Source: Escherichia phage BEK6
Length of the DNA: 46,736 nt
Strand: one strand, 5' to 3'
Sequence record: MN158208.1
The notes beneath the pieces are model-generated. The model was not told the DNA's origin, made no database searches, and saw only the letters and a list, made by a program, of their open reading frames with translations. Positions 5,850 to 46,694 of the stretch are shown piece by piece (the first letter of the stretch is position 1; each line of letters opens with the position of its first letter). The position numbers and the translations under genes were made by a program.

Positions 5850-5865
5850 CAATTAAGATATATAA

Positions 5866-5889
5866 AGCCTCCTTCGGGAGGTTTTTTTT
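5866..5889 (+). terminator. rho-independent terminator
   Basis: CCTCC-ttcg-GGAGG followed by TTTTTTTT. Confidence 0.6.
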
Positions 5890-6727: not shown

Positions 6728-7669
6728 ATGGCCATTAAATTTGACGCAGAACAAGCAAAAATCACTGCTCACCTCGAGCAAATGGGCGTAGATAAAGCAG
6801 ATGCCGCTGGTATCTGGACTGTTAGCCAGCTTACCGCTGCTCTGAAACGTGCTTACGAAAAAGAATACGCAGAAAACTCAGTTGTTAATATCTTCCCTGT
6901 AACAAATGAAATTCCTGGTCACGCGAAGTATTTCGAATACCCAGAATTTGATGGTGCTGGCATTGCTCAGATTATCGCTGATTACTCTGACGACCTTCCG
7001 CTGGTTGACGCTTTCATGACTGAGAAACAAGGTAAAGTGTTTCGTTTTGGTAACGCATTCCTGATTTCTATTGATGAAATTAAAGCAGGTGCCGCAACTG
7101 GTCAGCCTCTGTCGACTCGCAAGCAAGCCCTGGCTTTCGAAGCGCACGATAACCTGCTGGATAAACTGGTTTGGTCTGGCTCCACCCCGCACGGTATCCC
7201 TAGCGTATTCAACCATCCGAACATCAACAACGTTGTTGCTGGTACTTGGAACTCAGCAGCTGCTGCCATGACTGACATCACCGCGCTTATTGATGCAATC
7301 GAGACTTCGACCAATGGAACTCACACCGCAACTGATATCTTGCTGCCTGCTTCCGCTCGCCGCCTGATGCAAGAGCTGGTTCCTAACACCTCTATCAGTT
7401 ACGCGCAGTTGTTTGCTACCAACAACTCGGGCATCAATCTGCGTTATCTTCAGTTCCTGGATAACTACGACGGCGCAGGCGGCAAGGCTGCTCTGGCGTT
7501 TGAAAAGAATCCACTCAATATGTCTATCGAGATTCCGGAAGCTACCAACGTTCTTCCAGGACAACCTAAGGACTTGCACTTTAAGTACCCTGTAACATCA
7601 AAAGCTACAGGTTTGATCGTTTATCGTCCACTGACGATGGCTGTAATGAAAGGTATCAAATTCTCGTGA
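6728..7669 (+). CDS. major capsid protein (putative)
   Basis: 313-aa ORF with upstream TTGATT-16-TATAAT promoter and strong terminator 7676-7698; position and size typical of a major capsid protein. Confidence 0.6.
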   Translation: MAIKFDAEQAKITAHLEQMGVDKADAAGIWTVSQLTAALKRAYEKEYAENSVVNIFPVTNEIPGHAKYFEYPEFDGAGIAQIIADYSDDLPLVDAFMTEKQGKVFRFGNAFLISIDEIKAGAATGQPLSTRKQALAFEAHDNLLDKLVWSGSTPHGIPSVFNHPNINNVVAGTWNSAAAAMTDITALIDAIETSTNGTHTATDILLPASARRLMQELVPNTSISYAQLFATNNSGINLRYLQFLDNYDGAGGKAALAFEKNPLNMSIEIPEATNVLPGQPKDLHFKYPVTSKATGLIVYRPLTMAVMKGIKFS

Positions 7670-7675
7670 TAAATC

Positions 7676-7698
7676 GCCCTCTTCGGAGGGCTTTTTTT
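7676..7698 (+). terminator. rho-independent terminator after the major capsid gene
   Basis: GCCCTC-ttcg-GAGGGC followed by TTTTTTT. Confidence 0.65.
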
Positions 7699-9667: not shown

Positions 9668-10324
9668 ATGGCTCATTTATCAAATGGCACGCAGGTCTTC
9701 GTAGAAGGATCTCGCGGAACTGCAATTAACGTAACTGCAATCTCTAACGCAGATAAACCAGTTTTAACCGTATCTAGCGCATCTGACCTGGCTAAGGGTG
9801 ACTACCTTCTGTTTACCGCCTCCAGCTCAACCCTACTTAGCGACAAGCACGTGAGAGTAACTGAAGTTTCTGGCACTTCGGTAACAGTTGAAGGTATTGA
9901 TACCTCCAACACCACTAAGTTCCCTGCTGGCTTAACTGGTGAAGTTGTTAAGATTACTTCATGGTTCGAAGTCCCGTGTGTTCAGTACGTATCTACTGAC
10001 GGCGGCGAACAGCAGTTTGTTAACTTCCAGTGCCTTTCTGATGACCGCGAACAGCAGATTCCGACTTATAAATCTGCGGTAACAAACACCTTCACCTTTG
10101 CTCACGAGTACACCAACCCGGTCTATCCGGTTCTGCGTAAGTACGATGAGTCTGGCCAGGTTGTTGCAATTCGTCTGTTCGTACCTCGCGCTCAGGAAAT
10201 GCGTTTGCAGTCCGGCACTATCGCTTTCAACGACACCCCTACCATTGGTGTTAACGAAATCGAAACGGTATCCATCGCTGTATCCATTCGTGGCCGCCTG
10301 TCATCTGTGGCAGCTGAAGTTTAA
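9668..10324 (+). CDS. major tail protein
   Basis: 218-aa ORF with AAAAGGAAAAA RBS followed by a strong terminator (10331-10356); located before the chaperone/tape-measure genes. Confidence 0.6.
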   Translation: MAHLSNGTQVFVEGSRGTAINVTAISNADKPVLTVSSASDLAKGDYLLFTASSSTLLSDKHVRVTEVSGTSVTVEGIDTSNTTKFPAGLTGEVVKITSWFEVPCVQYVSTDGGEQQFVNFQCLSDDREQQIPTYKSAVTNTFTFAHEYTNPVYPVLRKYDESGQVVAIRLFVPRAQEMRLQSGTIAFNDTPTIGVNEIETVSIAVSIRGRLSSVAAEV

Positions 10325-10330
10325 AACACA

Positions 10331-10356
10331 AACCCTCTTCGGAGGGTTTTTTATTG
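10331..10356 (+). terminator. rho-independent terminator after the major tail gene
   Basis: CCCTC-ttcg-GAGGG followed by TTTTTTATT. Confidence 0.65.
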
Positions 10357-11036: not shown

Positions 11037-11356
11037 AGAGGGCGGTGTATCTACAGTACCAGTCAGAGCCAACTGATGCCGAACTGGAAGCTATTGGGAT
11101 GCGCCGCTCTGATTACGAAGACGAAGAGCCTGAAGTTTTACACTTCGACGACAACATGATGAAGGCTTGGGACATTTATTGTTCAATGGCCACGCAATGG
11201 AGGGTTGGAGCTAACGGACCTACAGGGTTAGATTACAACGTGCTAAATTTCCTCTTTAGAGTGTATAATGTCTCAGAAGAAGAATTGGTGCTCAGTGATT
11301 TACGCATCCTTGAAGCTAAGGCTCTCGAGATGATGGATAATCTGAGAAAAAAATAA
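10722..11356 (+). CDS. tail assembly chaperone, predicted -1 frameshift product (gpGT-like)
   Basis: Heptamer A_AAA_AAC at 11027-11033 in the zero frame, 1 nt before the G stop; the -1 frame is open through 11356. Confidence 0.45.
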
Positions 11357-11376
11357 CCCGCTTCGGCGGGTTTTCT
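11356..11376 (+). terminator. hairpin + T-run before the tape measure gene
   Basis: ACCCGC-ttcg-GCGGGT followed by TTTTCT. Confidence 0.5.
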
Positions 11377-11391
11377 ATTATGGAGGCTTAG

Positions 11392-20806: not shown

Positions 20807-20836
20807 AACAAAAGCCCCGAAAGGGGCTTTATATTT
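20805..20836. terminator. bidirectional terminator between convergent J-like and 314-aa genes
   Basis: GCCCC-gaaa-GGGGC flanked by an A-run upstream and T-rich sequence downstream. Confidence 0.6.
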
Positions 20837-22734: not shown

Positions 22735-22825
22735 CTCTCTTTGTTTTTGCGCTACCGATTTTCGGTATCACAAGCAGCACCATTGCCGCCATGCGCCTAA
22801 ATATACCTAAAGATATCCAGTTGTC

Positions 22826-22845
22826 TTTAGCAAATAGTGCTATTT
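22826..22845 (-). promoter_or_regulatory. palindrome copy (AAATAGCACTATTTGCTAAA on minus strand) upstream of the Rha-like gene
   Basis: Minus-strand TATATT (forward 22800-22805) 22 bp downstream; about 70-nt leader to ATG 22734. Confidence 0.45.
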
Positions 22846-22966
22846 ATAGCCAATTTCACCACAAATCACAGTTACACGTAACCGATGTAACTCGATGTAT
22901 ACAATCTCATCCGCGGAAAATGATATACGCCCTGTTACGCCAATTTACGCATTAGTTACATTAAAA

Positions 22967-23030
22967 TATCTATATATATCAACATTTTACTCTTATTATT
23001 ATTATTATATATATTACTGTGTATATCATG
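22967..23030. repeat. AT-rich repeat element with (TTA)n tract, copy A
   Basis: ATATCTATATATATCAACATTTTACTCTTATTATTATTATTATATATATTACTGTGTATATC; near-identical copy at 41828-41896. Confidence 0.7.
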
Positions 23031-23255
23031 TAACTACTTCTATAGAGTGTTCCGGTTATAATTTTAATATCATGTGGATTTATACAGTATTGCGTGACAG
23101 CTATACCAATGCACCCCCCCCTGCAAGAAACGGTATACACGATATACACGATGGTTACATTGAGCTATGGCTGGGCTGAGATGCCATTTTACGTAACTAG
23201 TGGCAACACCTACACGGAATTACAAGGATTCACGCGTAAGTTTAAATCAATCTGC

Positions 23256-23284
23256 TTGACATCAATGCGGATTAGTTGTACTAT
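23256..23284 (+). promoter_or_regulatory. candidate sigma70-type promoter for the HNH gene / plus-strand early operon
   Basis: TTGACA (23256-23261), 17-bp spacer, TACTAT (23279-23284). Confidence 0.5.
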
Positions 23285-23314
23285 CAATTAAACAAAACAG
23301 CGGAGGGCTTATTT

Positions 23315-23806
23315 ATGGAATGGGGAGACATCTTTGAATACAGCAACGGAAAGCTTTACTGGAAGATAAGACCAGCAATGAGGATGAGGGTTGGCGACCT
23401 TGCGGGGACGGAATGTAAGGGTTACATTCAAGTTAACTGCAAAGCCAAATCGGGGGTAAATAAACTATATAGGGCGCATAGGATTGTATGGGAAATGCAT
23501 CATGGACCAATACCAGAAGGGGTAGTTATCGACCACATTAATGGGAATGGTCTAGACAACAGGATTGAGAACCTAAGAGTGGTTACGCAAGCAGATAATC
23601 AGAAGAACAAGAAGGTTGGTAAAAACAATGAAAGTGGTGTTCTTGGTGTTGCTTGGTATAAGCCTAGTTCGAAGTGGGTCGCTAGAATATCTAAGGATGG
23701 GAAGTGGTCACATATTGGGTATTTCGATAATTTCGAGGATGCCGTAAGAGCTAGGCGAGAAGCTGAATTAGAATTCAAATATCACGAAAATCACGGGAGA
23801 CGTTAA
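23315..23806 (+). CDS. HNH homing endonuclease with AP2-like DNA-binding domain
   Basis: HNH motif (YRAHRIVWEMHHGPIPEGVVIDHINGNGLDNRIENLR) followed by GVLGVAWYKPSSKWVARI...GYFDNFEDAVRARREAE; GGAGGG RBS, TTGACA-17-TACTAT promoter upstream. Confidence 0.7.
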   Translation: MEWGDIFEYSNGKLYWKIRPAMRMRVGDLAGTECKGYIQVNCKAKSGVNKLYRAHRIVWEMHHGPIPEGVVIDHINGNGLDNRIENLRVVTQADNQKNKKVGKNNESGVLGVAWYKPSSKWVARISKDGKWSHIGYFDNFEDAVRARREAELEFKYHENHGRR

Positions 23807-26404: not shown

Positions 26405-28912
26405 TCATGCTCCGTAAGCAACGGAGCCATCTGCTTTTAACCATGAAGTTCCGTTGTACCACACAGGAATCCCAAGGTTGGTATCGAAAGTTGTGAAACC
26501 TACAGGCTGAAAAGCCCTTTTGGCTTTGATTTCGGCAGTTGTTCCATAGCTGTACTCTTTAAGCCTATGCGAAACCAAGTCAGAATTCCTGTTCCATAAG
26601 ATTTCATGCTCTTCAATCTTACCCCCAGAAGTTATTGAGTTAACCTGGTAGATACACCTAATCGTAGACATAGCACCAGAGTAATAATGTCCAAAAATAG
26701 AAATGAATCCAGTATCGTCCTGTATTTCATTTAACCACGGTTGAAAAACAGATCGAATATCACCCGTTGCTTCTGAAAGTGATAGCCTGAACTCAAAATC
26801 ACTCTTAACATTGTTTGATACACACCATGCGTTTACTGCATTAAAGGCTTCCAGTACCGTCATGGAAGGCTTCACATTTGAAAAGTAAAGGTACTTTGCA
26901 ATCTCAGAGCTACTATTAACAATGACATTGGAATCCTGAATGGTGCTGCTGAAATTCTTTACAGGAAAAAGAGATGCATTAACAACATTTAAAGCCCTTG
27001 TTAATGGATATGAAAGTCTTTCCAGCGTGTTTGTGTAATGATTTCCGGTTGTCGCGTCTACTATCCCAGCCCTGTATTTTATAAGATTAGGGTCCCATAT
27101 GGTTAAGTCAAAAAAGCAACCATCCATAAAACCAATGCCGTTTGATATCTTCACAACCTTTTGCATCATTGCGTGTGGTTGTGACTTGAGTCTGACTCTT
27201 ATGTCACCAATTCCACCTGCCACATTTCCACCAGACTTCGGCAAGCTATTGTCAACAAAATGATTCGTACTAAGCCACGCAACAAGATTCAAGTCCATTG
27301 ATGAAATAAAGTTTAACTTATTTGATCCAACGCTGATTGCGTGAGCGTTAGTAAAACCAGTTGACGAAACATCTATATCATTCCATATCAATACCTCTTG
27401 ATCTTTTGAGTTGCAGTCAATTGAGAATCCATAACCCTCATCATTAACTGGTGATGCTGCGGCCTCTTGCTTGATGGCTCCTTGCTTGTTGAATACGTAG
27501 AAATTACCAAAGAATGTTCGCTGGCTAAGTCTAGAGAAGTTTTGCGGCCCAGTATAGTAATTAGAACCCCTTAAAGTAAGAGCTACGCGCGAGTAACCGC
27601 CACCAGGTATGTCAACCTCAATTCTCATTCCATTAGCATTAAAGTTTGCTATAGGGTTTTTAAAGACAAATCCGTCAATGTCAGTTTTTATTAAAAAAAC
27701 AACATCTTCCGAAATGCTTACTTCCTTTAAACGTCCAATATCAATAGTCTTCGTACTAGAAATTAGATAAACACCAGATTTTACAACAAACCTGCCATCT
27801 GAAATCATAGCGTCAAAGCTAGAATCTACTGGCGTAGCTCCGGTATTATCTGCTCCGTAAGAAACTAAATCACCAATGAACCTTGATGTTGATTCCTCTT
27901 TTGAGTAAACATCAAGATTAGTTCTTGCTGCGGCTTTATCTTTAACGTCAGAGAAATTCAATGATTTTTGAAAAGTCTCATTTTTTGAATAAACATCAAG
28001 CAACCCCCTAACCCTTAAAGCAGAAGCTCCACCAGTAGCACCATCTCCACCAGGAACGCTTAGAAGTTCCCTTACATAAAAATTCCTAGAACCAGTAGCT
28101 CCAGTAAAGGTAATTTCCGCAACCCTAAAAGCTGCGTTTGAGGTTGTAGAAGGAGAAATTCTTACTACGTTACTTCCATTAATACCACTCGTTGCAAGAA
28201 CATCAATACAAATGGTGGTGTTTGTCGCCGGGAACATTGAACTTAAGTCTGCCGGAATGTTAACCATGTTGTCAATTCTGCACTGGTAACTACCACCTGA
28301 ATAAAATTGCATTGTCTGCCAATCAAGAGATGTTAAAAGTGGTGTTGTAGTACTTCCTATACCGTGTTCTGCAAAGTAAGCCACTGCGGCGGTATTCCCG
28401 GCTGCATTTATTACGGCAACGGTTCTCTTGTATGAGTTCTGTGCATTATTGCTAGCACCAACGGCAGTAGCGGCGCTCTCTGCGGCAGCAATCTGGCTAG
28501 CAAGAGCCTCAGCAGCTCCAGTGGTGGATTGTTTTGCAAGTTTCTCGAAGCGAGGCCAGTCGAAAGTGTCTTGACCAATAAATTGCAGCAATCCTTCGAT
28601 GGATGTCTCCTTTGACTGGTAGTATCGTAAAGTCTCCGCAACATCCTGAGCCAAACCCTGAACGGTAATACCATCGTGAGCAAGAATCGCATAACCCGTA
28701 CCGGCCGGAACTGTTTCAGAATTAGGATTGTAAACATTAATCTGCGTATCACTGATGATTTCAGAGATGGTGTAAATTTTTAGTGGGTTAGTTTTAAAAA
28801 TGATAGTGGCACCAACCCTGATCAGTGTAAGAGGTGCTTTCCATACTGTCCCCGCGCCAGTTACCTCGCCATTTGCGGCCAGCGAGGCGGTTCCTAAGTC
28901 ATAAATTGCCAT
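26405..28912 (-). CDS. putative tail fiber / tailspike-like protein
   Basis: 835-aa ORF rich in Gly/Ser/Thr/Asn; GC-richer 5' portion and AT-rich central/3' portion; GGAGA RBS; palindrome copy in the 5' leader. Confidence 0.5.
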   Translation of the reverse strand: MAIYDLGTASLAANGEVTGAGTVWKAPLTLIRVGATIIFKTNPLKIYTISEIISDTQINVYNPNSETVPAGTGYAILAHDGITVQGLAQDVAETLRYYQSKETSIEGLLQFIGQDTFDWPRFEKLAKQSTTGAAEALASQIAAAESAATAVGASNNAQNSYKRTVAVINAAGNTAAVAYFAEHGIGSTTTPLLTSLDWQTMQFYSGGSYQCRIDNMVNIPADLSSMFPATNTTICIDVLATSGINGSNVVRISPSTTSNAAFRVAEITFTGATGSRNFYVRELLSVPGGDGATGGASALRVRGLLDVYSKNETFQKSLNFSDVKDKAAARTNLDVYSKEESTSRFIGDLVSYGADNTGATPVDSSFDAMISDGRFVVKSGVYLISSTKTIDIGRLKEVSISEDVVFLIKTDIDGFVFKNPIANFNANGMRIEVDIPGGGYSRVALTLRGSNYYTGPQNFSRLSQRTFFGNFYVFNKQGAIKQEAAASPVNDEGYGFSIDCNSKDQEVLIWNDIDVSSTGFTNAHAISVGSNKLNFISSMDLNLVAWLSTNHFVDNSLPKSGGNVAGGIGDIRVRLKSQPHAMMQKVVKISNGIGFMDGCFFDLTIWDPNLIKYRAGIVDATTGNHYTNTLERLSYPLTRALNVVNASLFPVKNFSSTIQDSNVIVNSSSEIAKYLYFSNVKPSMTVLEAFNAVNAWCVSNNVKSDFEFRLSLSEATGDIRSVFQPWLNEIQDDTGFISIFGHYYSGAMSTIRCIYQVNSITSGGKIEEHEILWNRNSDLVSHRLKEYSYGTTAEIKAKRAFQPVGFTTFDTNLGIPVWYNGTSWLKADGSVAYGA

Positions 28913-28968: not shown

Positions 28969-28992
28969 CTTTCAGGCATAAAAAAACCTCCC
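28969..28992 (-). terminator. rho-independent terminator after the primase gene (minus strand)
   Basis: Minus-strand AACCTCC-ttcg-GGAGGTT followed by TTTTTTT. Confidence 0.6.
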
Positions 28993-29000
28993 GAAGGAGG

Positions 29001-29924
29001 TTAGTCTAGTAATTCGCTTGCCTTGTATATCCTCTTCCTTATGCCTGACTTAAAAAATTTATCATCATTTGGCATTACCACATCAAGATTGCGATCGTCA
29101 GCAACGGCGAGTAAATCAAAATCGTGGCGAGCACAAGCGACGCGTAACTTGTAGTTTCTAAGCGCGTAAGCAACCATTTCCATGTTGTAGCTGGAGTAGC
29201 AAACAAACACGCAGCGGTTGCCAGTAGCAATATGAACGCGAACACCATCAATCCAATTATCGACCAGATAAGCGTACTCATCACTTTTAAAGGCACCAAT
29301 AACAGCAATAGACTGGCGAGTGTAATCTTTTGCAGCATAACTAACATCTCCCTCTTCATTAATAAACATTACATTGCACATCTCATCGGACAATCCATCA
29401 CTATAGGCCATAAAACAAGGCACTGCGTGTATTAGTTCTCCTGATTTTGTCCTGCCGACATCAAAACCAAACTCGCTATAGATACCCTCGTATATACTTA
29501 GTGGAGTTGATTCTACTCTTTCCGTCCTTTCCATTATCTCTAAGCATCTTTCGTGGTCAATCTGAGCGCCCATTTTGTACAGCTGAGTCCTTGATGCTTG
29601 CTTGTTTGCCTTATTAACCACTTCTACAGGGATAAGGTTTAACCACTCACCGAGAACATCGACACATTCACTGAATGACTCCCCTCGCATCTTCTGAACC
29701 CAGACAATTCCATCTCCTGAGCCACACTGGTTGCAGATAATGCCACCATCACCTTCTTCGCTAACCTTGTTGGTCCATCGTGCTCGGTCTTTTCCTCCAC
29801 AATAAATACATGGCTGATGCTTTTTGGTCTGGAAGAATTTTGGGTCTGCGCCGCAAATGTTTATAAGCGCCTTATCCCACAGTCCGCGCATTCTTGGTAG
29901 AACCTCTTTCTTATCGTAGTGCAT
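29001..29924 (-). CDS. putative DNA primase (zinc-ribbon containing)
   Basis: CIYCGG...CNQCGSG paired CxxC zinc-ribbon near the N-terminus; divergent from the helicase gene; strong terminator downstream on the minus strand. Confidence 0.45.
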   Translation of the reverse strand: MHYDKKEVLPRMRGLWDKALINICGADPKFFQTKKHQPCIYCGGKDRARWTNKVSEEGDGGIICNQCGSGDGIVWVQKMRGESFSECVDVLGEWLNLIPVEVVNKANKQASRTQLYKMGAQIDHERCLEIMERTERVESTPLSIYEGIYSEFGFDVGRTKSGELIHAVPCFMAYSDGLSDEMCNVMFINEEGDVSYAAKDYTRQSIAVIGAFKSDEYAYLVDNWIDGVRVHIATGNRCVFVCYSSYNMEMVAYALRNYKLRVACARHDFDLLAVADDRNLDVVMPNDDKFFKSGIRKRIYKASELLD

Positions 29925-38456: not shown

Positions 38457-40040
38457 TCACCCCAGCAGTCGTGGATTAATGTAAACTTTATCACCAATCA
38501 GGCACGTGTAGTTTTTCTCATCAAGCATTGGCAGCAAGTGGTCTTTAATCTTCGTCATTACTCCCGCTTGAGCCTCGAACGGCTTAACCTTGCGAGCCGC
38601 TTCATATAGCGAACGAATACCTACTACTCCTTTCCCGTTTTTGCCTTGCTTAATCAGGATATCAATCAGCTTATTCATCTCTGCATTGTCGCCAGCGTGA
38701 CCCGCGGCGTTAGCGGATGACAGATAAGTTTTGCTCAACTCCTGGAACATAATTACAGCTTCCTGCATTGTATCAAGCTCAATTTCTCTCGACTTCTGAG
38801 GGCTACCGCCATTTGGGTTGAACCAGTTACGCACAGTGTGAAGGACAGCCGCAATCCTTATTGCCTGCTTATCAAACTTACCAAGCGCGCCGCGCAACAT
38901 TGTGTGTGAATACTTGCCGCCGTCCGCAAGGTGAGGTTCCATTTCCTGACGCGCACGGTTGAGATACTTCATTGCTGAGTTACTAACCGTTAGTTTTACA
39001 TCCTGCTCATTCATGATTTCATGAACAAGACGGAAGTAATCAGCCTTCAACCCTGCATCAATTGGTTCATAAGTCGATTCGCCATTTTCATCAACGAATA
39101 CACGCTCGCCCAGGAATGACTTTTCACGTACAAGCAGGAAACGCTCAGATACACCGATACCACGCGCGCCAGCGTTCATGATAGCGTTGATTGTCTCATC
39201 CTGCGCAATTACAGAGATGCAACCCATAGCGACGAAGCTCATGTTGTTTTCAGCGTTAGCACGAGCGATAGATACGTTGCCAGCATCCCATGCCTTCAGT
39301 ACCAGTTCGCTGTTCGTTTTCTTTGATCCGTCACCATAGGTCATGCCAAGTAGTGAGTTTACACTCGTTGCCTCATCCGAGATTACTGCAAAGTTACCCT
39401 GACGATTGTTTATTCGCGCAAGACCTTCCGGTGTGGTATCTGAAACCGGGAAAACGATATCGCATAGTTTCTCGAGTTTTTCCTCCAACTCCTCTTTCTC
39501 CTCGAAAAGAGAAGCCATCTCTGACGGGGATTTTTCCTGCTTCATCTCTTTGGATAACGCAGATAGTTTAGCCATAATCTTTTTGCGCTCACGCTTTCGC
39601 ACTTCATTCAGTCGAGCAGTTTCAGCAATCATCGGAGCAATTGAAAGTGAGTTGATTGCTGATTTACCAGTCGATGGTGGCTGGCTTGTTACAACATAAA
39701 GCGAAGTCGGTTGCTGCGTTCCGTGATACTCAACAGTAAAACGGCCTAGCATCGCAGCGGAAATACACCCAAGGAAGTGCATGTAAGCTGAAGACTCGGG
39801 GAACTGAACTGAGCGAGCAATATTAGCTGACAGTTTACCAACAACATCAATGTCATTGCCGAGTGAGATCACGGGATACTTGTCATTAGCCGCATCAATC
39901 TCCACCGGTGCTTTCCAGAATGATTGAGACTGGCGATAGCCATTGGCATTAATAGCGACGCGCAGGGGTGGGAGGTTGTCTGCGGCAGCAATTGCCATAA
40001 CCTGTTCAACAGATAGTTTATCTTCGTTGAAATCAAACAT
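38457..40040 (-). CDS. P-loop NTPase-like protein (Walker A/B-like motifs), function unknown
   Basis: 527 aa; Walker A-like QPPSTGKS and Walker B-like FAVISDEAT in the central region; N- and C-terminal segments shared with the 175-aa ORF at 42714-43241. Confidence 0.5.
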   Translation of the reverse strand: MFDFNEDKLSVEQVMAIAAADNLPPLRVAINANGYRQSQSFWKAPVEIDAANDKYPVISLGNDIDVVGKLSANIARSVQFPESSAYMHFLGCISAAMLGRFTVEYHGTQQPTSLYVVTSQPPSTGKSAINSLSIAPMIAETARLNEVRKRERKKIMAKLSALSKEMKQEKSPSEMASLFEEKEELEEKLEKLCDIVFPVSDTTPEGLARINNRQGNFAVISDEATSVNSLLGMTYGDGSKKTNSELVLKAWDAGNVSIARANAENNMSFVAMGCISVIAQDETINAIMNAGARGIGVSERFLLVREKSFLGERVFVDENGESTYEPIDAGLKADYFRLVHEIMNEQDVKLTVSNSAMKYLNRARQEMEPHLADGGKYSHTMLRGALGKFDKQAIRIAAVLHTVRNWFNPNGGSPQKSREIELDTMQEAVIMFQELSKTYLSSANAAGHAGDNAEMNKLIDILIKQGKNGKGVVGIRSLYEAARKVKPFEAQAGVMTKIKDHLLPMLDEKNYTCLIGDKVYINPRLLG

Positions 40041-41470: not shown

Positions 41471-41524
41471 ACCAATCTCCCCGTTGTTGATGAGCTAACT
41501 ATAGCCTGGCCATCCACACATGTC

Positions 41525-41544
41525 TTTAGCAAAAAGTGCTATTC
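41525..41544 (-). promoter_or_regulatory. palindrome copy (AATAGCACTTTTTGCTAAA on minus strand)
   Basis: Minus-strand TATAGT (forward 41498-41503) about 23 bp downstream; first gene of the minus operon starts at 41470. Confidence 0.45.
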
Positions 41545-41827
41545 GTCAGATTTATGGATTGTTGCAGATATTGCAATGATTCACATGACTATTGCACATA
41601 CAGCAATATTGCTTCAGATGCAATGATGTTTTTGATTGTTGCGAAAAGTGAAATGAAGTGGGGAGTGAGTGAATGAAAGATTGATGGACTGCCATACAAG
41701 TTGACTTTACCACTCGATGAGCACCTCACGGATATACGCGTATCCTAAGTATACTCAGTGTCGTCACAAAAGTTAGTGACCACTAACCTACGTTTTTACG
41801 CGAGATATACACACGATATACAATATA

Positions 41828-41896
41828 ATATCTATATATATCAACCTTTTACTTTATTATTATTATTATTATTATATATATGTATACTGTGTATAC
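41828..41896. repeat. AT-rich repeat element with (TTA)n tract, copy B
   Basis: ATATCTATATATATCAACCTTTTACTTTATTATTATTATTATTATTATATATATGTATACTGTGTATACC; same orientation as copy A. Confidence 0.7.
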
Positions 41897-42102
41897 CGAT
41901 CATTGGTGAGATAGTTGATATGTTCCGCGCAGATATTCTGACACTTGTAGGAAAGGGATGACATTGTAGGAATGGATAGGCATGCATGGGGCCTGGTGGG
42001 TAAAAAAAGTGTATACACGGCGTACGCGCAATATACATATAGAGATGATGCGGTGCTAGAGGCAGATTTGCGTATTAGGTGAAAAATATACAAAGAAATA
42101 CT

Positions 42103-42131
42103 TTGACTAACGCGTAAATCTGATGCAATAT
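42103..42131 (+). promoter_or_regulatory. candidate sigma70-type promoter for the 42172 gene cluster
   Basis: TTGACT (42103-42108), 17-bp spacer, CAATAT (42126-42131). Confidence 0.35.
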
Positions 42132-42171
42132 ACCAATCAATGAAACGCAGTACACAACAACGAGGTGACAT

Positions 42172-42714
42172 ATGAATGAAGTAACGCTTGGTGAAGTAAT
42201 CAGGAATATGGTAAGTAAAGCCATGGAGTCCAGCAGTGGTGAGTTTAAGGTTCCTGTAAGGGAAATATTCAAGGTGCTTAGAGGTCGGGATTATCCTGAG
42301 CTCAGGTATGATGTTGAAACTGATGAGATCATCAACCTTAAGGAGCGGTCGATTCCAGAATTGAAGAACTCATACATTTATAATACGGTATCAAGGATGC
42401 CGCAGTTAAGAGCTGCAGGAAAGCATGCTAAGCACAAGATAATCTGGATTGATGATGATGGTGAGCAGACGAGCGCAAAGCAATTCGACGGTGACGGTGC
42501 AGATAAGTATCTTGTAATCCAGATCTGCGATGGTGAACATAAGAAGAGCGAGAGCGCCAGGAGGAAGAGAGATAGCGATGCTGCTGTTATTGAGTCATTC
42601 AAGTCAAGATTAATGAAGGTAGTACCGAGCGTTATGGACTTAGATGGTGAGCAGAAGGTTGGCGCAGAGATTGCTATCGGTAGATTTTATGATTTGATTA
42701 AGGATGCTAAATAA
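42172..42714 (+). CDS. hypothetical protein
   Basis: 180-aa ORF, first plus-strand gene after the 41.5-42.2 kb control region; candidate TTGACT-17-CAATAT promoter upstream. Confidence 0.45.
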   Translation: MNEVTLGEVIRNMVSKAMESSSGEFKVPVREIFKVLRGRDYPELRYDVETDEIINLKERSIPELKNSYIYNTVSRMPQLRAAGKHAKHKIIWIDDDGEQTSAKQFDGDGADKYLVIQICDGEHKKSESARRKRDSDAAVIESFKSRLMKVVPSVMDLDGEQKVGAEIAIGRFYDLIKDAK

Positions 42715-43241
42715 TGTTTGATTTCAACGAAGACAAATTGACTGATGAACAGATTATGAGCATTGCGAAGCAGGATGGAATTCCACCGCTACGGATTGCA
42801 ATCAATGCAAATGGTTATAGGCATGTTCAGCACCTCTGGGGCCAGCCTGACGCATCGGAAGTCTACAGAGATGAAGCGCTGGGAGTTATGATTAAGTTGA
42901 TCAGGAAAATGGCAAGGAACGGCAAGGGCGTGCTTGGCATCAGGTCTTTATACGATGGCGCTCGCAGGGGGAAAAGAATTAATGGTGGCAATGCCGTGCT
43001 GATGGCTCGCATTAAGGATGAGCTCATCCCCGCTCTAGAGGAAATGAATCTCGTTTGCCTAATTGGAGATAAGATTTATGTTCATCCGGCTATCATTGAT
43101 GAGTATTGGCAACCAAACTTCAAAACTTACGAAGGTGAGCACGCTAGTAGACCACCATACCACTTGCGGTACAGCGAGGAAGAGGTGGAGGTGGCGATTG
43201 AGTTCTACCGGAAAGCTAAATCACTCCTGAATGGTGAATAG
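42714..43241 (+). CDS. truncated paralog of the 527-aa NTPase-like protein (N- and C-terminal segments only)
   Basis: Starts MFDFNEDKLTDEQIMSIA...PPLRIAINANGYR and contains NGKGVLGIRSLYDGAR...IKDELIPALEEMNLVCLIGDKIYVHP, matching both ends of the minus-strand 527-aa protein; first 20 nt identical. Confidence 0.5.
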   Translation: MFDFNEDKLTDEQIMSIAKQDGIPPLRIAINANGYRHVQHLWGQPDASEVYRDEALGVMIKLIRKMARNGKGVLGIRSLYDGARRGKRINGGNAVLMARIKDELIPALEEMNLVCLIGDKIYVHPAIIDEYWQPNFKTYEGEHASRPPYHLRYSEEEVEVAIEFYRKAKSLLNGE

Positions 43242-46223: not shown

Positions 46224-46301
46224 GCTCTGTTAGCTCAATTGGATAGCAGCAACGACCTTCTAAGTCGTAGGTTACTGGTTCGAATCCAGTGCGGAGCGCC
46301 A
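46224..46301 (+). tRNA. tRNA-Arg (anticodon UCU), with encoded 3' CCA
   Basis: Hand-folded cloverleaf: acceptor GCTCTGT/GCGGAGC, anticodon stem ACGAC/GTCGT with loop CTTCTAA (anticodon TCT), T-arm ACTGG-TTCGAAT-CCAGT, discriminator G then CCA; resembles enterobacterial argU-type tRNA. Confidence 0.75.
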
Positions 46302-46308
46302 AATCAAA

Positions 46309-46410
46309 CGTCGCGTTGCTAATGCTGGCCAAAGGGTGGAGCTTATACCTCCATAAAGCAATCTCCAGATAAGAGATGTAACGCAGGTTCGATTCCTGCC
46401 GCGACGACCA
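46309..46410 (+). ncRNA. tRNA-like element (non-canonical length; possibly a class II tRNA or degenerate tRNA)
   Basis: Perfect 7-bp acceptor pairing CGTCGCG/CGCGACG, canonical T-arm GCAGG-TTCGATT-CCTGC, discriminator A and CCA, D-loop-like GGCCAAAGGG, but ~99 nt with two candidate anticodon hairpins. Confidence 0.3.
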
Positions 46411-46608: not shown

Positions 46609-46669
46609 CGCCGAATGGCTAGAAAAAAGTGTTATACCCTCGTTAAGTTTCGTTTCTCTCGTTGTTTTT

Positions 46670-46694
46670 AGCCCTCGCTTGAGGGCTTTTTTTC
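46670..46694 (+). terminator. rho-independent terminator
   Basis: AGCCCTC-gctt-GAGGGCT followed by TTTTTTT. Confidence 0.65.

What the first reader, a model, noticed from the sequence alone, without database searches (positions are those of the whole stretch)
22735..23314. Twin AT-rich (TTA)n repeat elements at both divergent strand-switch regions
Two approximately 65-70-bp near-identical direct repeats (22967-23030 and 41828-41896) each contain ATATCTATATATATCAAC, a (TTA)4-6 microsatellite and TACTGTGTATA. Each lies in a 600-700-bp non-coding region from which minus- and plus-strand operons diverge (Rha-like vs HNH at 22.7-23.3 kb; minus cluster vs 42172 gene at 41.5-42.2 kb). Flanking sequence in both regions also carries short ATACACGAT/TATACAC repeats (23135-23155; 41795-41825; about 42005-42050). 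Highly AT-rich, repeat-bearing divergent regions are candidates for replication origins or unwinding elements, or for shared early enhancer/promoter regions.
Basis: seen in the sequence. Interest (0 to 1): 0.6.

Follow-up and report, generated by a model that had tools for sequence, protein, structure and literature searches.

The report
Paired AT-rich unwinding cores, T1-like phage
This T1-like phage, like every relative examined, carries two copies of a roughly 400-bp non-coding control module built round a fixed-length, almost pure A/T core that is the easiest place in the genome to melt; these are the best available candidates for the still-unmapped replication origins of this phage family, although a role in early transcription is not excluded.

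Summary
Cores at 22963-23025 and 41825-41895 share identical 19-, 21- and 11-nt blocks. Both lie in non-coding regions of 580 and 701 bp.

- **Not a microsatellite.** Core length is nearly fixed among relatives, at 63 bp and 71 bp.
- **Easiest DNA to melt.** The cores are the two least stable duplex stretches (z about 5, next about 3). The same holds at the same two syntenic sites in all nine genomes tested, from four Drexlerviridae subfamilies, including T1 and TLS, whose core sequences differ.
- **Part of a larger paralogous module.** Each core sits in a co-linear module of about 330-420 bp, rich in short oriented repeats. The modules resemble each other more within a genome than across subfamilies.
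- **Tested and not found.** Coding signal, conserved RNA structure, DnaA boxes and GATC clusters are all absent. Promoter-like matches in the cores are only moderate.
- **IGR2 only.** It also holds a pac-like TTGCA/AGATTTAT cluster.

Best reading (confidence about 0.45): unwinding cores of two iteron-flanked, phage-initiator-dependent replication origins, like SPP1 oriL/oriR or P4 ori/crr. Main rival (about 0.3): twin early promoter/operator regions. Nothing here is experimentally shown.

The parts
22963..23025 (+). Twin core, copy 1 (63 bp, 57 of 63 A/T). It contains a left AT block, an IHF-consensus match, (TTA)5, TATATAT and TACTGTGTATA. Positions 22993-23032 are invariant in 11 Braunvirinae.
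41825..41895 (+). Twin core, copy 2 (71 bp), with (TTA)6-7 and GTATACTGTGTATA. The length is 71 bp in 10 of 11 orthologues.
22873..23250 (+). Module 1: a conserved non-coding block around core 1. It is 84-94% identical in relatives even where both flanking genes differ. Conserved islands alternate with variable spacers whose length is preserved.
41731..42142 (+). Module 2: the paralogous block around core 2. It aligns co-linearly with module 1 (22935-23267 against 41796-42142). It is conserved in Braunvirinae and in Sd1 (Rogunavirinae).
22977..22989 (+). Match to the IHF consensus WATCAANNNNTTR (TATCAACATTTTA) inside core 1
   Evidence: 4 matches in the genome, 3.5 expected; 2 of them are these. 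Conserved in most Braunvirinae but lost in Sd1 copy 1, BEK3/TR1 copy 2, T1 and TLS.
41839..41851 (+). Match to the IHF consensus (TATCAACCTTTTA) inside core 2
22871..22961 (.). Left-flank short repeats of module 1: GTTAC/GTAAC three times (22871-22891), the TCCGCGGA palindrome (22910-22917), GATATACGC, and TTACGC-TTACGC-GTTACA at 10-bp spacing (22934-22961)
23133..23160 (+). Right-flank tandem repeats of module 1: GGTATACAC-GATATACAC-GATGGTTACA. The counterparts are T1 CGATTAACA three times and TLS GTGAACAC twice, at the equivalent place.
41804..41823 (+). Left-flank repeats of module 2 (GATATACACACGATATACAA). These form an imperfect inverted pair with 41888-41897 (TGTGTATACC).
42011..42038 (+). 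Right-flank TATAC repeats of module 2 (GTATACACGGCGTACGCGCAATATACAT)
23256..23284 (+). Sigma-70 promoter-like site TTGACA-17-TACTAT ahead of the HNH gene. It is the best-scoring site in the window and lies outside the conserved module.
42103..42131 (+). Promoter-like site TTGACT-17-CAATAT ahead of the 42172 gene. TTGACC is conserved in the orthologues.
22826..22843 (-). Copy of the phage-wide ATAGCAC-N3-TTGNTAAA repeat ahead of the Rha-like gene
   Evidence: the repeat is described for TLS in PMC11447400
41525..41542 (-). Copy of the same repeat ahead of the minus-strand cluster that leaves the second region
41545..41660 (+). pac-like cluster found only in the second region: CAGATTTATGG plus TTGCA/TGCAA repeats. 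It is not part of the twin element.
   Evidence: PMC11447400 and PMC7718038
38457..40040 (-). DUF3987 putative helicase with a C-terminal winged helix. It is a candidate (by inference only) for the protein that recognises the repeats.
   Evidence: PMC5862659
42714..43241 (+). 175-aa paralogue of that helicase. It keeps only the N-terminus and the winged-helix C-terminus and lacks the ATPase core. It is an accessory gene, present here and in BEK3.
   Evidence: (I2)

Best explanation
Each twin element is the DNA-unwinding core of a roughly 400-bp cis-acting module, and the phage carries two such modules as paralogues.

**Proposed mechanism (inferred).**
1. A phage-encoded sequence-specific protein binds the short repeats that flank the core on both sides. 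These repeats are GTAAC, TTACGC and TATACAC types.
2. The best candidate for that protein is the DUF3987 helicase, acting through its winged-helix C-terminus. The Cro-like HTH protein encoded next to the primase is a second candidate.
3. In most Braunvirinae, IHF probably bends the left part of the core.
4. The fixed-length, TA-step-rich (TTA)n-TATATA tract melts under negative supercoiling.
5. The phage helicase and primase then load there, with host polymerase III doing the synthesis.

The two modules are therefore two origins, or an origin plus a cooperating second site in the manner of P4 ori and crr. Because both modules must fit the same protein, they evolve in concert.

**What is shown.** The melting propensity, the fixed length, the repeat enrichment, the paralogy, the family-wide synteny, and the absence of coding or RNA signal.

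**What is inferred.** Protein binding, melting in vivo, and initiation itself.
For: 1. The cores are the two least stable duplex stretches of the window at 30-, 50- and 80-bp scales. Their z is 4.4-5.4, against 3.3 at most for any other site.
2. The same is true at the same two syntenic positions in 9 of 9 complete genomes from four subfamilies. This includes T1 and TLS, whose core sequences are not alignable with this one.
3. Core length is held at 63 bp (11 of 14) and 71 bp (10 of 11). Changes in TTA count are offset by changes in TA count. Positions 22993-23032 are invariant.
4. Short G/C-containing motifs are strongly enriched on both flanks. Examples are TATAC at 17 against 0.9 expected, ACGCGTA at 4 against 0.19, and GTAAC at 8 against 3.
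5. The enriched motif differs by lineage but is shared by both modules of a genome.

| Lineage | Enriched motif |
|---|---|
| T1 | TGTAAC / GATTAACA |
| TLS | GTTCAC / GAACA |
| window and Sd1 | GTATAC / ATACAC |

6. The modules are paralogous over 330-420 bp in the window, T1 and TLS, and over about 160 bp in BEK3 and Rtp, with z of 13-30. Scores within a genome (47-70) exceed orthologue scores between subfamilies (18-42).
7. The block is conserved at 84-94% while the neighbouring genes are swapped.
8. There is no codon periodicity (46/44/46 variable columns by phase) and no conserved ORF. There is no conserved RNA fold and no Rfam match.
9. TLS keeps the core upstream of recE although that region is not divergent there.
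10. No origin is known for T1-like phages (PMC11447400 and PMC7718038).
Against: - There is no experimental datum of any kind.
- The modules sit directly upstream of the two early-type + operons, with a fixed orientation. A regulatory role explains that equally well.
- The repeats are short (5-9 bp) and degenerate, not the 17-22-bp iterons of classical origins.
- The modules also contain several different palindromes, typical of dimeric regulators: TCCGCGGA, ATACGCGTAT, and AGCTATAGCT in relatives.
- The IHF match is not conserved across the family, and the consensus is not enriched in the genome.
- The inverted-repeat bracket round the cores is only suggestive. In 7 of 10 cores at most 8% of shuffles reached the observed score, and 3 of 10 cores were at chance level.
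- Neither module adjoins the primase and helicase genes at 29-32.5 kb.
- GC skew is uninformative because it follows gene orientation.
- The winged-helix fold is generic and need not bind DNA.
Confidence: 0.45

Rival explanations
1. The modules are twin early transcription control regions. Each core would be an AT-rich promoter or UP-element, or an IHF-bent enhancer. The flanking repeats and palindromes would be operators for phage regulators, such as the Cro-like HTH protein or the Rha-like protein. Together they would switch the two early operons on and off, in the way lambda OL and OR are paralogous operator sets at two divergent promoters.
For: - Both modules lie upstream of + operons in a fixed orientation. 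The right end of each abuts the promoter.
- Promoter-like matches exist in the cores on both strands, for example TTTACT-18-TATATT and TTTACT-16-TATTAT.
- The EC3a record annotates two predicted promoters at this spot.
- A fixed (TTA)n length would fit a promoter spacer.
- Several palindromes suit dimeric regulators.
- A P22-Cro-like protein is encoded in the window.
- Concerted evolution of operators with a repressor is as expected as that of iterons with an initiator.
Against: - The core promoter matches are 9 of 12. A heuristic score ranks them only 15th and 24th in the genome, among many intragenic chance sites.
- Both flanking operons already have their own proximal promoters.
- The -35-like TTTACT is not kept in Rtp copy 2, BEK3 copy 2, TR1, T1 or TLS, while the melting property is.
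- The register between TTTACT and the conserved TACTGTGTATA differs by 8 nt between the two copies.
- A run of 60-80 bp of nearly pure A/T, 210-285 bp upstream of the gene, is unusual for a promoter.
Confidence: 0.3
2. The modules do both jobs as transcription-activated origins. A promoter in or beside the core would feed an RNA into the easily melted tract, and that RNA would prime or open the origin. This is how T4 oriF and oriG and the T7 primary origin work.
For: - Promoter-like sites overlap a strong unwinding tract.
- Virulent phages that use host RNA polymerase commonly couple the two functions. This rests on established knowledge of T4 and T7, not on a test here.
Against: - There is no evidence of a transcript.
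- There is no R-loop-favouring G-rich stretch next to the cores.
- The flanking repeats are not needed in that design.
Confidence: 0.1
3. The cores are neutral or architectural AT-rich DNA. They would be a slippage-prone microsatellite, a binding site for nucleoid proteins, or conserved 'linker' sequence that merely marks recombination joints between exchangeable gene modules.
For: - Both edges of module 1 are mosaic joints. On the left, relatives have either a Rha-like gene or a cor lipoprotein gene. On the right, this window has an HNH insertion at 23251.
- AT-rich DNA attracts H-NS.
Against: - Repeat number and total length are fixed, not polymorphic.
- 40 bp are invariant.
- The physical property is kept in subfamilies where the sequence has turned over.
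- Lineage-specific motifs are shared by both copies.
Confidence: 0.07
4. The twin element is part of the DNA packaging (pac) signal.
For: - The second region holds a pac-like cluster.
- The T1 and Rtp records start inside that cluster.
- The TR1 record labels it the initial packaging site.
Against: - The TTGCA/AGATTTAT cluster (41545-41660) is about 170 bp to the left of core 2.
- It has no counterpart in the first region.
- Two pac sites 19 kb apart would not fit headful packaging from a single site.
Confidence: 0.03

Closest known systems
Bacillus phage SPP1 oriL and oriR (bound by the origin-binding protein G38P)
   Same: SPP1 is a virulent, pac-type siphophage. It has two distant, related origin regions, each with short repeated boxes next to an AT-rich region that is easily unwound. 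This comparison is from memory of Missich et al. 1997 and was not checked here.
   Different: oriL lies inside the initiator gene. The SPP1 boxes and G38P have no sequence relation to anything here. Binding and initiation are demonstrated for SPP1 and not for this phage.
Satellite phage P4 ori and crr with the alpha protein (primase, helicase and winged-helix origin-binding domain in one chain)
   Same: P4 has two cis elements several kb apart that carry the same short octamer repeats. Its initiator is itself the helicase, with a C-terminal winged helix. The T1-type primase is annotated as related to the P4-alpha type of primase (T1 record). TLS repeats (TGTTCAC-G/A) resemble the P4 type I iteron as I recall it (TGTTCACC). 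That last point is from memory only.
   Different: Here the primase and helicase are separate genes. The helicase core is DUF3987, not the P4 type. No sequence match to any solved structure was found. The roles of the two sites are unknown.
SaPI (staphylococcal island) origins with Pri and Rep
   Same: Iterons lie on both sides of an AT-rich stretch of about 80 bp. They are recognised by a helicase whose terminal domain sets specificity. The helicase family is an uncharacterised-domain P-loop ATPase associated with primases of mobile elements. DUF927 is proven and DUF3987 predicted (PMC5862659).
   Different: A SaPI has a single origin, placed next to the rep gene. The helicase belongs to a different DUF family. 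The SaPI origin layout is recalled from memory, not checked here.
Archaeal oriC with Orc1/Cdc6 and ORB elements
   Same: An AT-rich unwinding element is bracketed by repeats in inverted orientation. Those repeats are bound through a winged helix attached to an ATPase. The winged helix here gives its best structural matches to ORC and Cdc6 winged helices.
   Different: This is a resemblance of fold only, at 6-17% identity. The inverted bracket here is statistically weak. DUF3987 is not shown to be AAA+ of the Orc type.
Lambda OL and OR operator regions
   Same: These are two paralogous cis-regulatory regions at the heads of diverging early operons. Both are bound by the same phage HTH proteins and therefore co-evolve.
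   Different: The lambda operators are 17-bp palindromes with no 60-80-bp A/T core. Lambda's origin lies elsewhere, inside gene O.

Membership tests
Iteron-type replication origin with a DNA-unwinding element | A discrete AT-rich stretch that is the most easily melted DNA of the replicon | tested here: met
   The cores are the top two least stable windows in the window and in 8 further genomes.
Iteron-type replication origin with a DNA-unwinding element | Clustered repeats of one motif next to the unwinding element | tested here: inconclusive
   Short motifs are strongly enriched on both flanks, including tandem copies at 9-10-bp spacing (23133-23160; 22934-22961). However, the units are only 5-9 bp long, degenerate, and of more than one type.
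Iteron-type replication origin with a DNA-unwinding element | Specific binding by a replicon-encoded initiator | not testable with these tools
   There are only candidates: the DUF3987 helicase winged helix, its paralogue, and the Cro-like protein.
Iteron-type replication origin with a DNA-unwinding element | Replication starts there (mapped initiation or origin-dependent plasmid replication) | not testable with these tools
   No data exist. GC skew follows gene orientation and says nothing.
oriC-like, DnaA-dependent origin | Cluster of DnaA boxes (TTWTNCACA) and of GATC sites | tested here: not met
   There is no exact DnaA box anywhere in the window. The two regions hold one GATC site (counted on both strands as 2), against about 3.6 expected on that count.
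IHF-dependent element | Match to WATCAANNNNTTR with an AT-rich tract upstream, conserved in relatives | tested here: inconclusive
   Both cores have a perfect match, kept in most Braunvirinae. It is lost in Sd1 copy 1, BEK3, TR1 and phiA2-1 copy 2, T1 and TLS. The consensus is not enriched genome-wide.
Sigma-70 promoter | -35 and -10 hexamers at 16-18 bp, conserved in relatives | tested here: inconclusive
   The matches are 9 of 12 on both strands and rank 15th and 24th by a heuristic score. The -35-like hexamer is not conserved outside close relatives.
Sigma-70 promoter | A mapped transcription start | not testable with these tools
   No transcription-start-site study of Drexlerviridae was found in the held library.
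Hypervariable microsatellite (contingency locus) | Repeat number varies among close relatives | tested here: not met
   (TTA)5 occurs in 10 of 14 first-region copies, and total length is 63 bp in 11 of 14. Total length is 71 bp in 10 of 11 second-region copies.
Structured non-coding RNA | Conserved secondary structure or a match to a known family | tested here: not met
   The only Rfam matches in the window are two to the tRNA family near its right end (46224-46298 and 46309-46407). RNAalifold z scores run from -2.05 to +0.70 on both strands.
Protein-coding gene | A conserved reading frame and three-base periodicity of substitutions | tested here: not met
   Variable columns by phase are 46/44/46. 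The open frame is broken in several relatives.
pac site of a headful-packaging phage | Lies at the mapped genome end and carries the terminase recognition repeats | tested here: not met
   The ends of the T1 and Rtp records, and the TR1 annotation, fall in the TTGCA cluster at 41545-41660. They do not fall in the cores, and the first region lacks that cluster.

The most novel reading that the evidence does not exclude
Drexlerviridae would use a two-site origin system that has been maintained since before the subfamilies split. Two distant modules, each made of repeats, a fixed-length A/T core, and more repeats, would be recognised by the winged helix of the DUF3987 helicase, so that the helicase is its own initiator. 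The two modules would be kept alike by co-evolution or gene conversion. In some phages an ATPase-less copy of the helicase's DNA-binding ends, encoded right beside module 2, would tune the system. One module would be physically coupled to pac and to the early promoters, linking injection, early transcription, initiation and packaging in one 700-bp region.
Probability: 0.15. Interest if true: 0.7.

Novelty: new member of a known kind. Interest (0 to 1): 0.5.

Why it matters
T1 was one of Delbruck's original seven phages, yet its replication origin has never been located. Recent genome papers on TLS and SU57 state that none could be found.

A pair of syntenic, physically conserved unwinding cores with lineage-specific flanking repeats gives two precise, testable candidates for the whole family, which has hundreds of sequenced members. 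Many of those phages are used or proposed for therapy, and T1-like phages are notorious laboratory contaminants.

If confirmed, the result would also assign a role and a DNA target to the uncharacterised DUF3987 helicase family. It would give a compact cis element for building T1-based replicons or for attenuating these phages. If the modules prove to be purely transcriptional, they still define the early control regions of the family.

Tried and rejected
- **Rfam scan of the whole window.** It found only two matches to the tRNA family near the right end (46224-46298 and 46309-46407).
- **RNAalifold on three sub-blocks, both strands.** There was no significant conserved structure. A first attempt timed out.
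- **Coding test.** There was no periodicity and no conserved ORF. The longer ORFs annotated downstream of the core in BEK3, EC3a and Rtp run through the conserved block and are probably over-extended.
- **DnaA boxes and GATC clustering.** Both are absent.
- **GC skew.** Minima coincide with the two regions, but they simply track gene orientation.
- **Searches of E. coli genomes and plasmids for module 1.** No match was found, so there is no satellite or plasmid carrying it.
- **IMG/VR scan for the 17-mer.** Most hits were unrelated AT-rich contigs.
- **Protein-anchored locus searches.** They gave only 7 loci for the first region and none for the second. Relatives were taken from GenBank phage records instead.
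- **Sequence search of solved structures** with the helicase and the Cro-like protein. Nothing was found.
- **Co-variation of second-region type with the helicase or its paralogue.** It is uninformative. The helicase is 93-99% identical across both types, and the paralogue is an accessory gene absent from most genomes.
- **Inverted repeats bracketing the cores.** The result is suggestive only.
- **Literature.** No transcription-start or origin mapping for Drexlerviridae was found. The Rtp genome paper is not held.
- **LexA box reading of TACTGTGTATAT.** I rejected this by eye, because only one half-site is present.
Full report
**What the window is.** It is a complete or near-complete genome of a T1-like siphophage (Drexlerviridae, Braunvirinae-like).
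- Its closest relatives in GenBank are Escherichia phages BEK3 and BEK2, at about 92% identity in the region of interest.
- The gene order matches Rtp and T1: terminase and structural genes on the + strand; a short minus cluster; the recombination genes (exonuclease VIII, Erf); the primase and a Cro-like gene on the minus strand; an SNF2-type helicase; lysis genes; a minus cluster containing a DUF3987 helicase; and a final + cluster of small genes.
- The two non-coding regions in the finding are 22735-23314 (IGR1) and 41471-42171 (IGR2).

**The observation.**
- The twin element is present as described.
- Copy 1 is 22963-23025 and copy 2 is 41825-41895.
- They share AATATCTATATATATCAAC, TTTTACT, a (TTA)n-TATATAT run and TACTGTGTATA.
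- The 17-mer TATCTATATATATCAAC occurs exactly twice; 0.16 matches are expected even at three mismatches.
- The two intergenic regions align with E = 5e-18.
- The local alignment score is 70, against 14.7 +/- 1.8 for dinucleotide shuffles.
- The flanking short repeats are also real. TATAC occurs 17 times on the + strand of the two regions against 0.9 expected, and almost only in that orientation apart from palindromic GTATAC.
- The similarity is not confined to the core. It runs co-linearly over about 330 bp, through islands such as TGTTCCG, GTATACACG and ACGCGTAA, up to the promoters of the + genes.

**It is not a free-running microsatellite.**
- Among 14 first-region copies from relatives the element is 63 bp long in 11; the others are 59, 62 and 64 bp.
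- Among 11 second-region copies it is 71 bp in 10.
- Where the number of TTA units differs, the adjoining TA run changes in the opposite direction.
- In an alignment of 11 Braunvirinae, 22993-23032 is invariant. This stretch covers (TTA)n, TATATAT, TACTGTGTATATCATGTA.
- The rest of the block shows conserved islands separated by variable spacers of preserved length.

**The defining property is physical and family-wide.**
- By nearest-neighbour stacking energies, the two cores are the two least stable duplex stretches of the genome at 30-, 50- and 80-bp scales. Their z is 4.4-5.4, and the next site has z of 3.3 or less.
- I repeated this on eight further complete genomes: BEK3, 2725-N35, Rtp, T145P1 and A110b (Braunvirinae), Sd1 (Rogunavirinae), T1 (Tunavirinae) and TLS (Tempevirinae).
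- In every one, the top two 60-bp windows (z 4.9-5.8; the next are 2.8-3.8) are the two syntenic sites. One lies upstream of the exonuclease VIII operon and one lies in the terminal intergenic region.
- In T1 and TLS the core sequences are different from this phage, so the property is conserved rather than the sequence.
- In TLS the first site lies between two + strand genes (tspJ and recE). Divergent transcription is therefore not what holds it there.

**The cores sit in paralogous modules that evolve in concert.**
- Within the window, T1, TLS, BEK3 and Rtp, the two regions align with each other far better than shuffles do (z 13-30). The alignment spans 330-420 bp in the window, T1 and TLS, and about 160 bp in BEK3 and Rtp.
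- Scores between the two modules of one genome (47-70) exceed scores between orthologous modules of different subfamilies (18-42; the shuffle maximum is about 25).
- The G/C-containing short motifs enriched in the modules differ by lineage but are shared by both modules of a genome (sequences):
  - T1: TGTAAC and GATTAACA
  - BEK3 and Rtp: GTAAC(G)
  - the window and Sd1: GTATAC and ATACAC, plus TGTAAC in the first region
  - TLS: GTTCAC and GAACA
- A tandem array about 100 bp to the right of the core is recognisably equivalent in three subfamilies:
  - window: GGTATACAC-GATATACAC-GATGGTTACA
  - T1: CGATTAACA three times
  - TLS: GTGAACAC-GTGAACAG
- This pattern is what one expects if both modules are read by the same phage-encoded sequence-specific protein or proteins.

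**What the modules are not.**
- They are not coding. Variable columns fall 46/44/46 by phase, and the open frame across the block is broken in several relatives.
- They are not a structured RNA.
- They are not oriC-like. The genome has no exact DnaA box and no GATC cluster.
- They are not present in E. coli chromosomes or plasmids.
- They are not the pac site. The second region has, to the left of its module, a separate and very conserved cluster at 41545-41660, made of CAGATTTATGG plus TTGCA/TGCAA repeats.
  - The T1 record, whose first 2800 bp are annotated as a repeat_region, starts inside that cluster. So does the Rtp record.
  - The TR1 record labels it the initial packaging site.
  - AGATTTAT matches the P22 pac core quoted in the TLS paper.
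  - The first region has nothing like it.

**Promoters.**
- The minus-strand genes leaving both regions are preceded by the phage-wide ATAGCAC-N3-TTGNTAAA repeat. The window has 20 copies, all pointing with transcription. This repeat is already described for TLS, with unknown function.
- The + genes have their own proximal promoter-like sites at 23256 and 42103.
- The cores contain 9-of-12 matches on both strands, and the EC3a record annotates predicted promoters there.
- With a heuristic position-weighted score these rank only 15th and 24th in the genome.
- The -35-like hexamer is not kept in the more distant copies.
- A perfect IHF consensus lies in both cores and in most Braunvirinae. It is absent from several other copies, and the consensus is not enriched genome-wide. 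I treat it as a lead.

**Candidate readers of the repeats (inference).**
- The phage encodes a zinc-ribbon primase, a P22-Cro-like HTH protein next to it, an SNF2-type helicase and a DUF3987 protein.
- DUF3987 is predicted in the literature to be a helicase family of mobile elements, standing in for MCM, RepA or DnaB next to primases.
- The DUF3987 protein is 93-99% identical across Braunvirinae and Sd1, which is much more conserved than the primase (72-88%). It is 57% identical in T1 and 73% in TLS, where the repeats differ.
- A 175-aa gene beside module 2 (42714-43241) is a copy of the first 50 or so residues and the last 70 or so residues of that helicase, without the ATPase core.
- This makes a helicase that recognises its own origin plausible, as in P4 alpha or SaPI Rep. 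It does not demonstrate it.

**Verdict.**
- The most likely function is that the cores are unwinding elements of two paralogous origin-type modules (confidence about 0.45).
- The main rival is a pair of early promoter/operator regions (about 0.3). A combined, transcription-activated origin is a third option (about 0.1).
- Sequence alone cannot separate these. The decisive experiments are marker-frequency sequencing early in infection, infection-dependent amplification of cloned modules, and footprinting and transcription-start mapping.
- As a kind of element it is not new. As the first concrete origin candidates for the T1 family, with a family-wide physical signature, it is of moderate interest.

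Noticed in passing
window 41545-41660: A pac-like cluster (CAGATTTATGG plus TTGCA/TGCAA repeats) is very conserved from Braunvirinae to T1. The T1 and Rtp GenBank records begin inside it, and the TR1 record labels it the initial packaging site. AGATTTAT matches the P22 pac core quoted in the TLS paper.
   Followed up: partly
window, 20 sites (e.g. 15546, 22843-, 25197, 33194, 33528, 41542-, 44054, 45444): The repeat ATAGCAC-N3-TTGNTAAA always points with transcription. About 22 bp downstream it is followed by TATAGTTAC..CATCGAAACGA. TAGCA...TGCTA is an inverted pair. The repeat is known from TLS (PMC11447400), where its function is listed as an open question.
   Followed up: partly
window 42714-43241 (+) and 38457-40040 (-): A 175-aa protein is a paralogue of the DUF3987 helicase that keeps only its N-terminal 50 or so residues and its C-terminal winged helix (51% and 49% identity). 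It is present here and in BEK3. In N35, T145P1, A110b, Sd1 and Rtp it is absent or reduced to a remnant.
   Followed up: yes
window 23251-23806: An HNH (AP2-type) homing-endonuclease gene with its own near-consensus promoter (TTGACA-17-TACTAT) replaces the sequence that follows the module in relatives. There, TTGGCAAAACCAATTGG and a TATAGTTAC-type promoter precede a small gene.
   Followed up: partly
window 46309-46407: Rfam reports a second tRNA-like match (39.3 bits, 99 nt) next to tRNA-Arg(TCT) at 46224-46301. ARAGORN does not call it. Sd1 carries two tRNAs at the equivalent place.
   Followed up: no
window 41938-41972; 41734-41743; 22910-22917: The modules contain further distinct motifs: the direct repeat TGACA(C)TTGTAGGAA twice (a perfect TTCTGACA..TGTCAGAA palindrome in relatives), and the palindromes ATACGCGTAT and TCCGCGGA (TTTCCGCGGAAA in Rtp). 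These suggest more than one DNA-binding protein acts there.
   Followed up: no
L061 (TLS) 28760-28775, 28990-29010, 150-160, 410-440: The TLS flanking repeats read TGTTCAC(G/A). This is close to the type I iteron of satellite phage P4 as I remember it (TGTTCACC). I did not check it against the P4 sequence.
   Followed up: no
window 5853-5889, 7662-7698, 10318-10354, 11342-11378, 20807-20831, 46657-46693: A family of G+C-rich hairpins followed by T runs (GCCCTCTTCGGAGGGCTTTTTTT type) lies between structural genes. These are presumably intrinsic terminators, as annotated in the T1 record.
   Followed up: no
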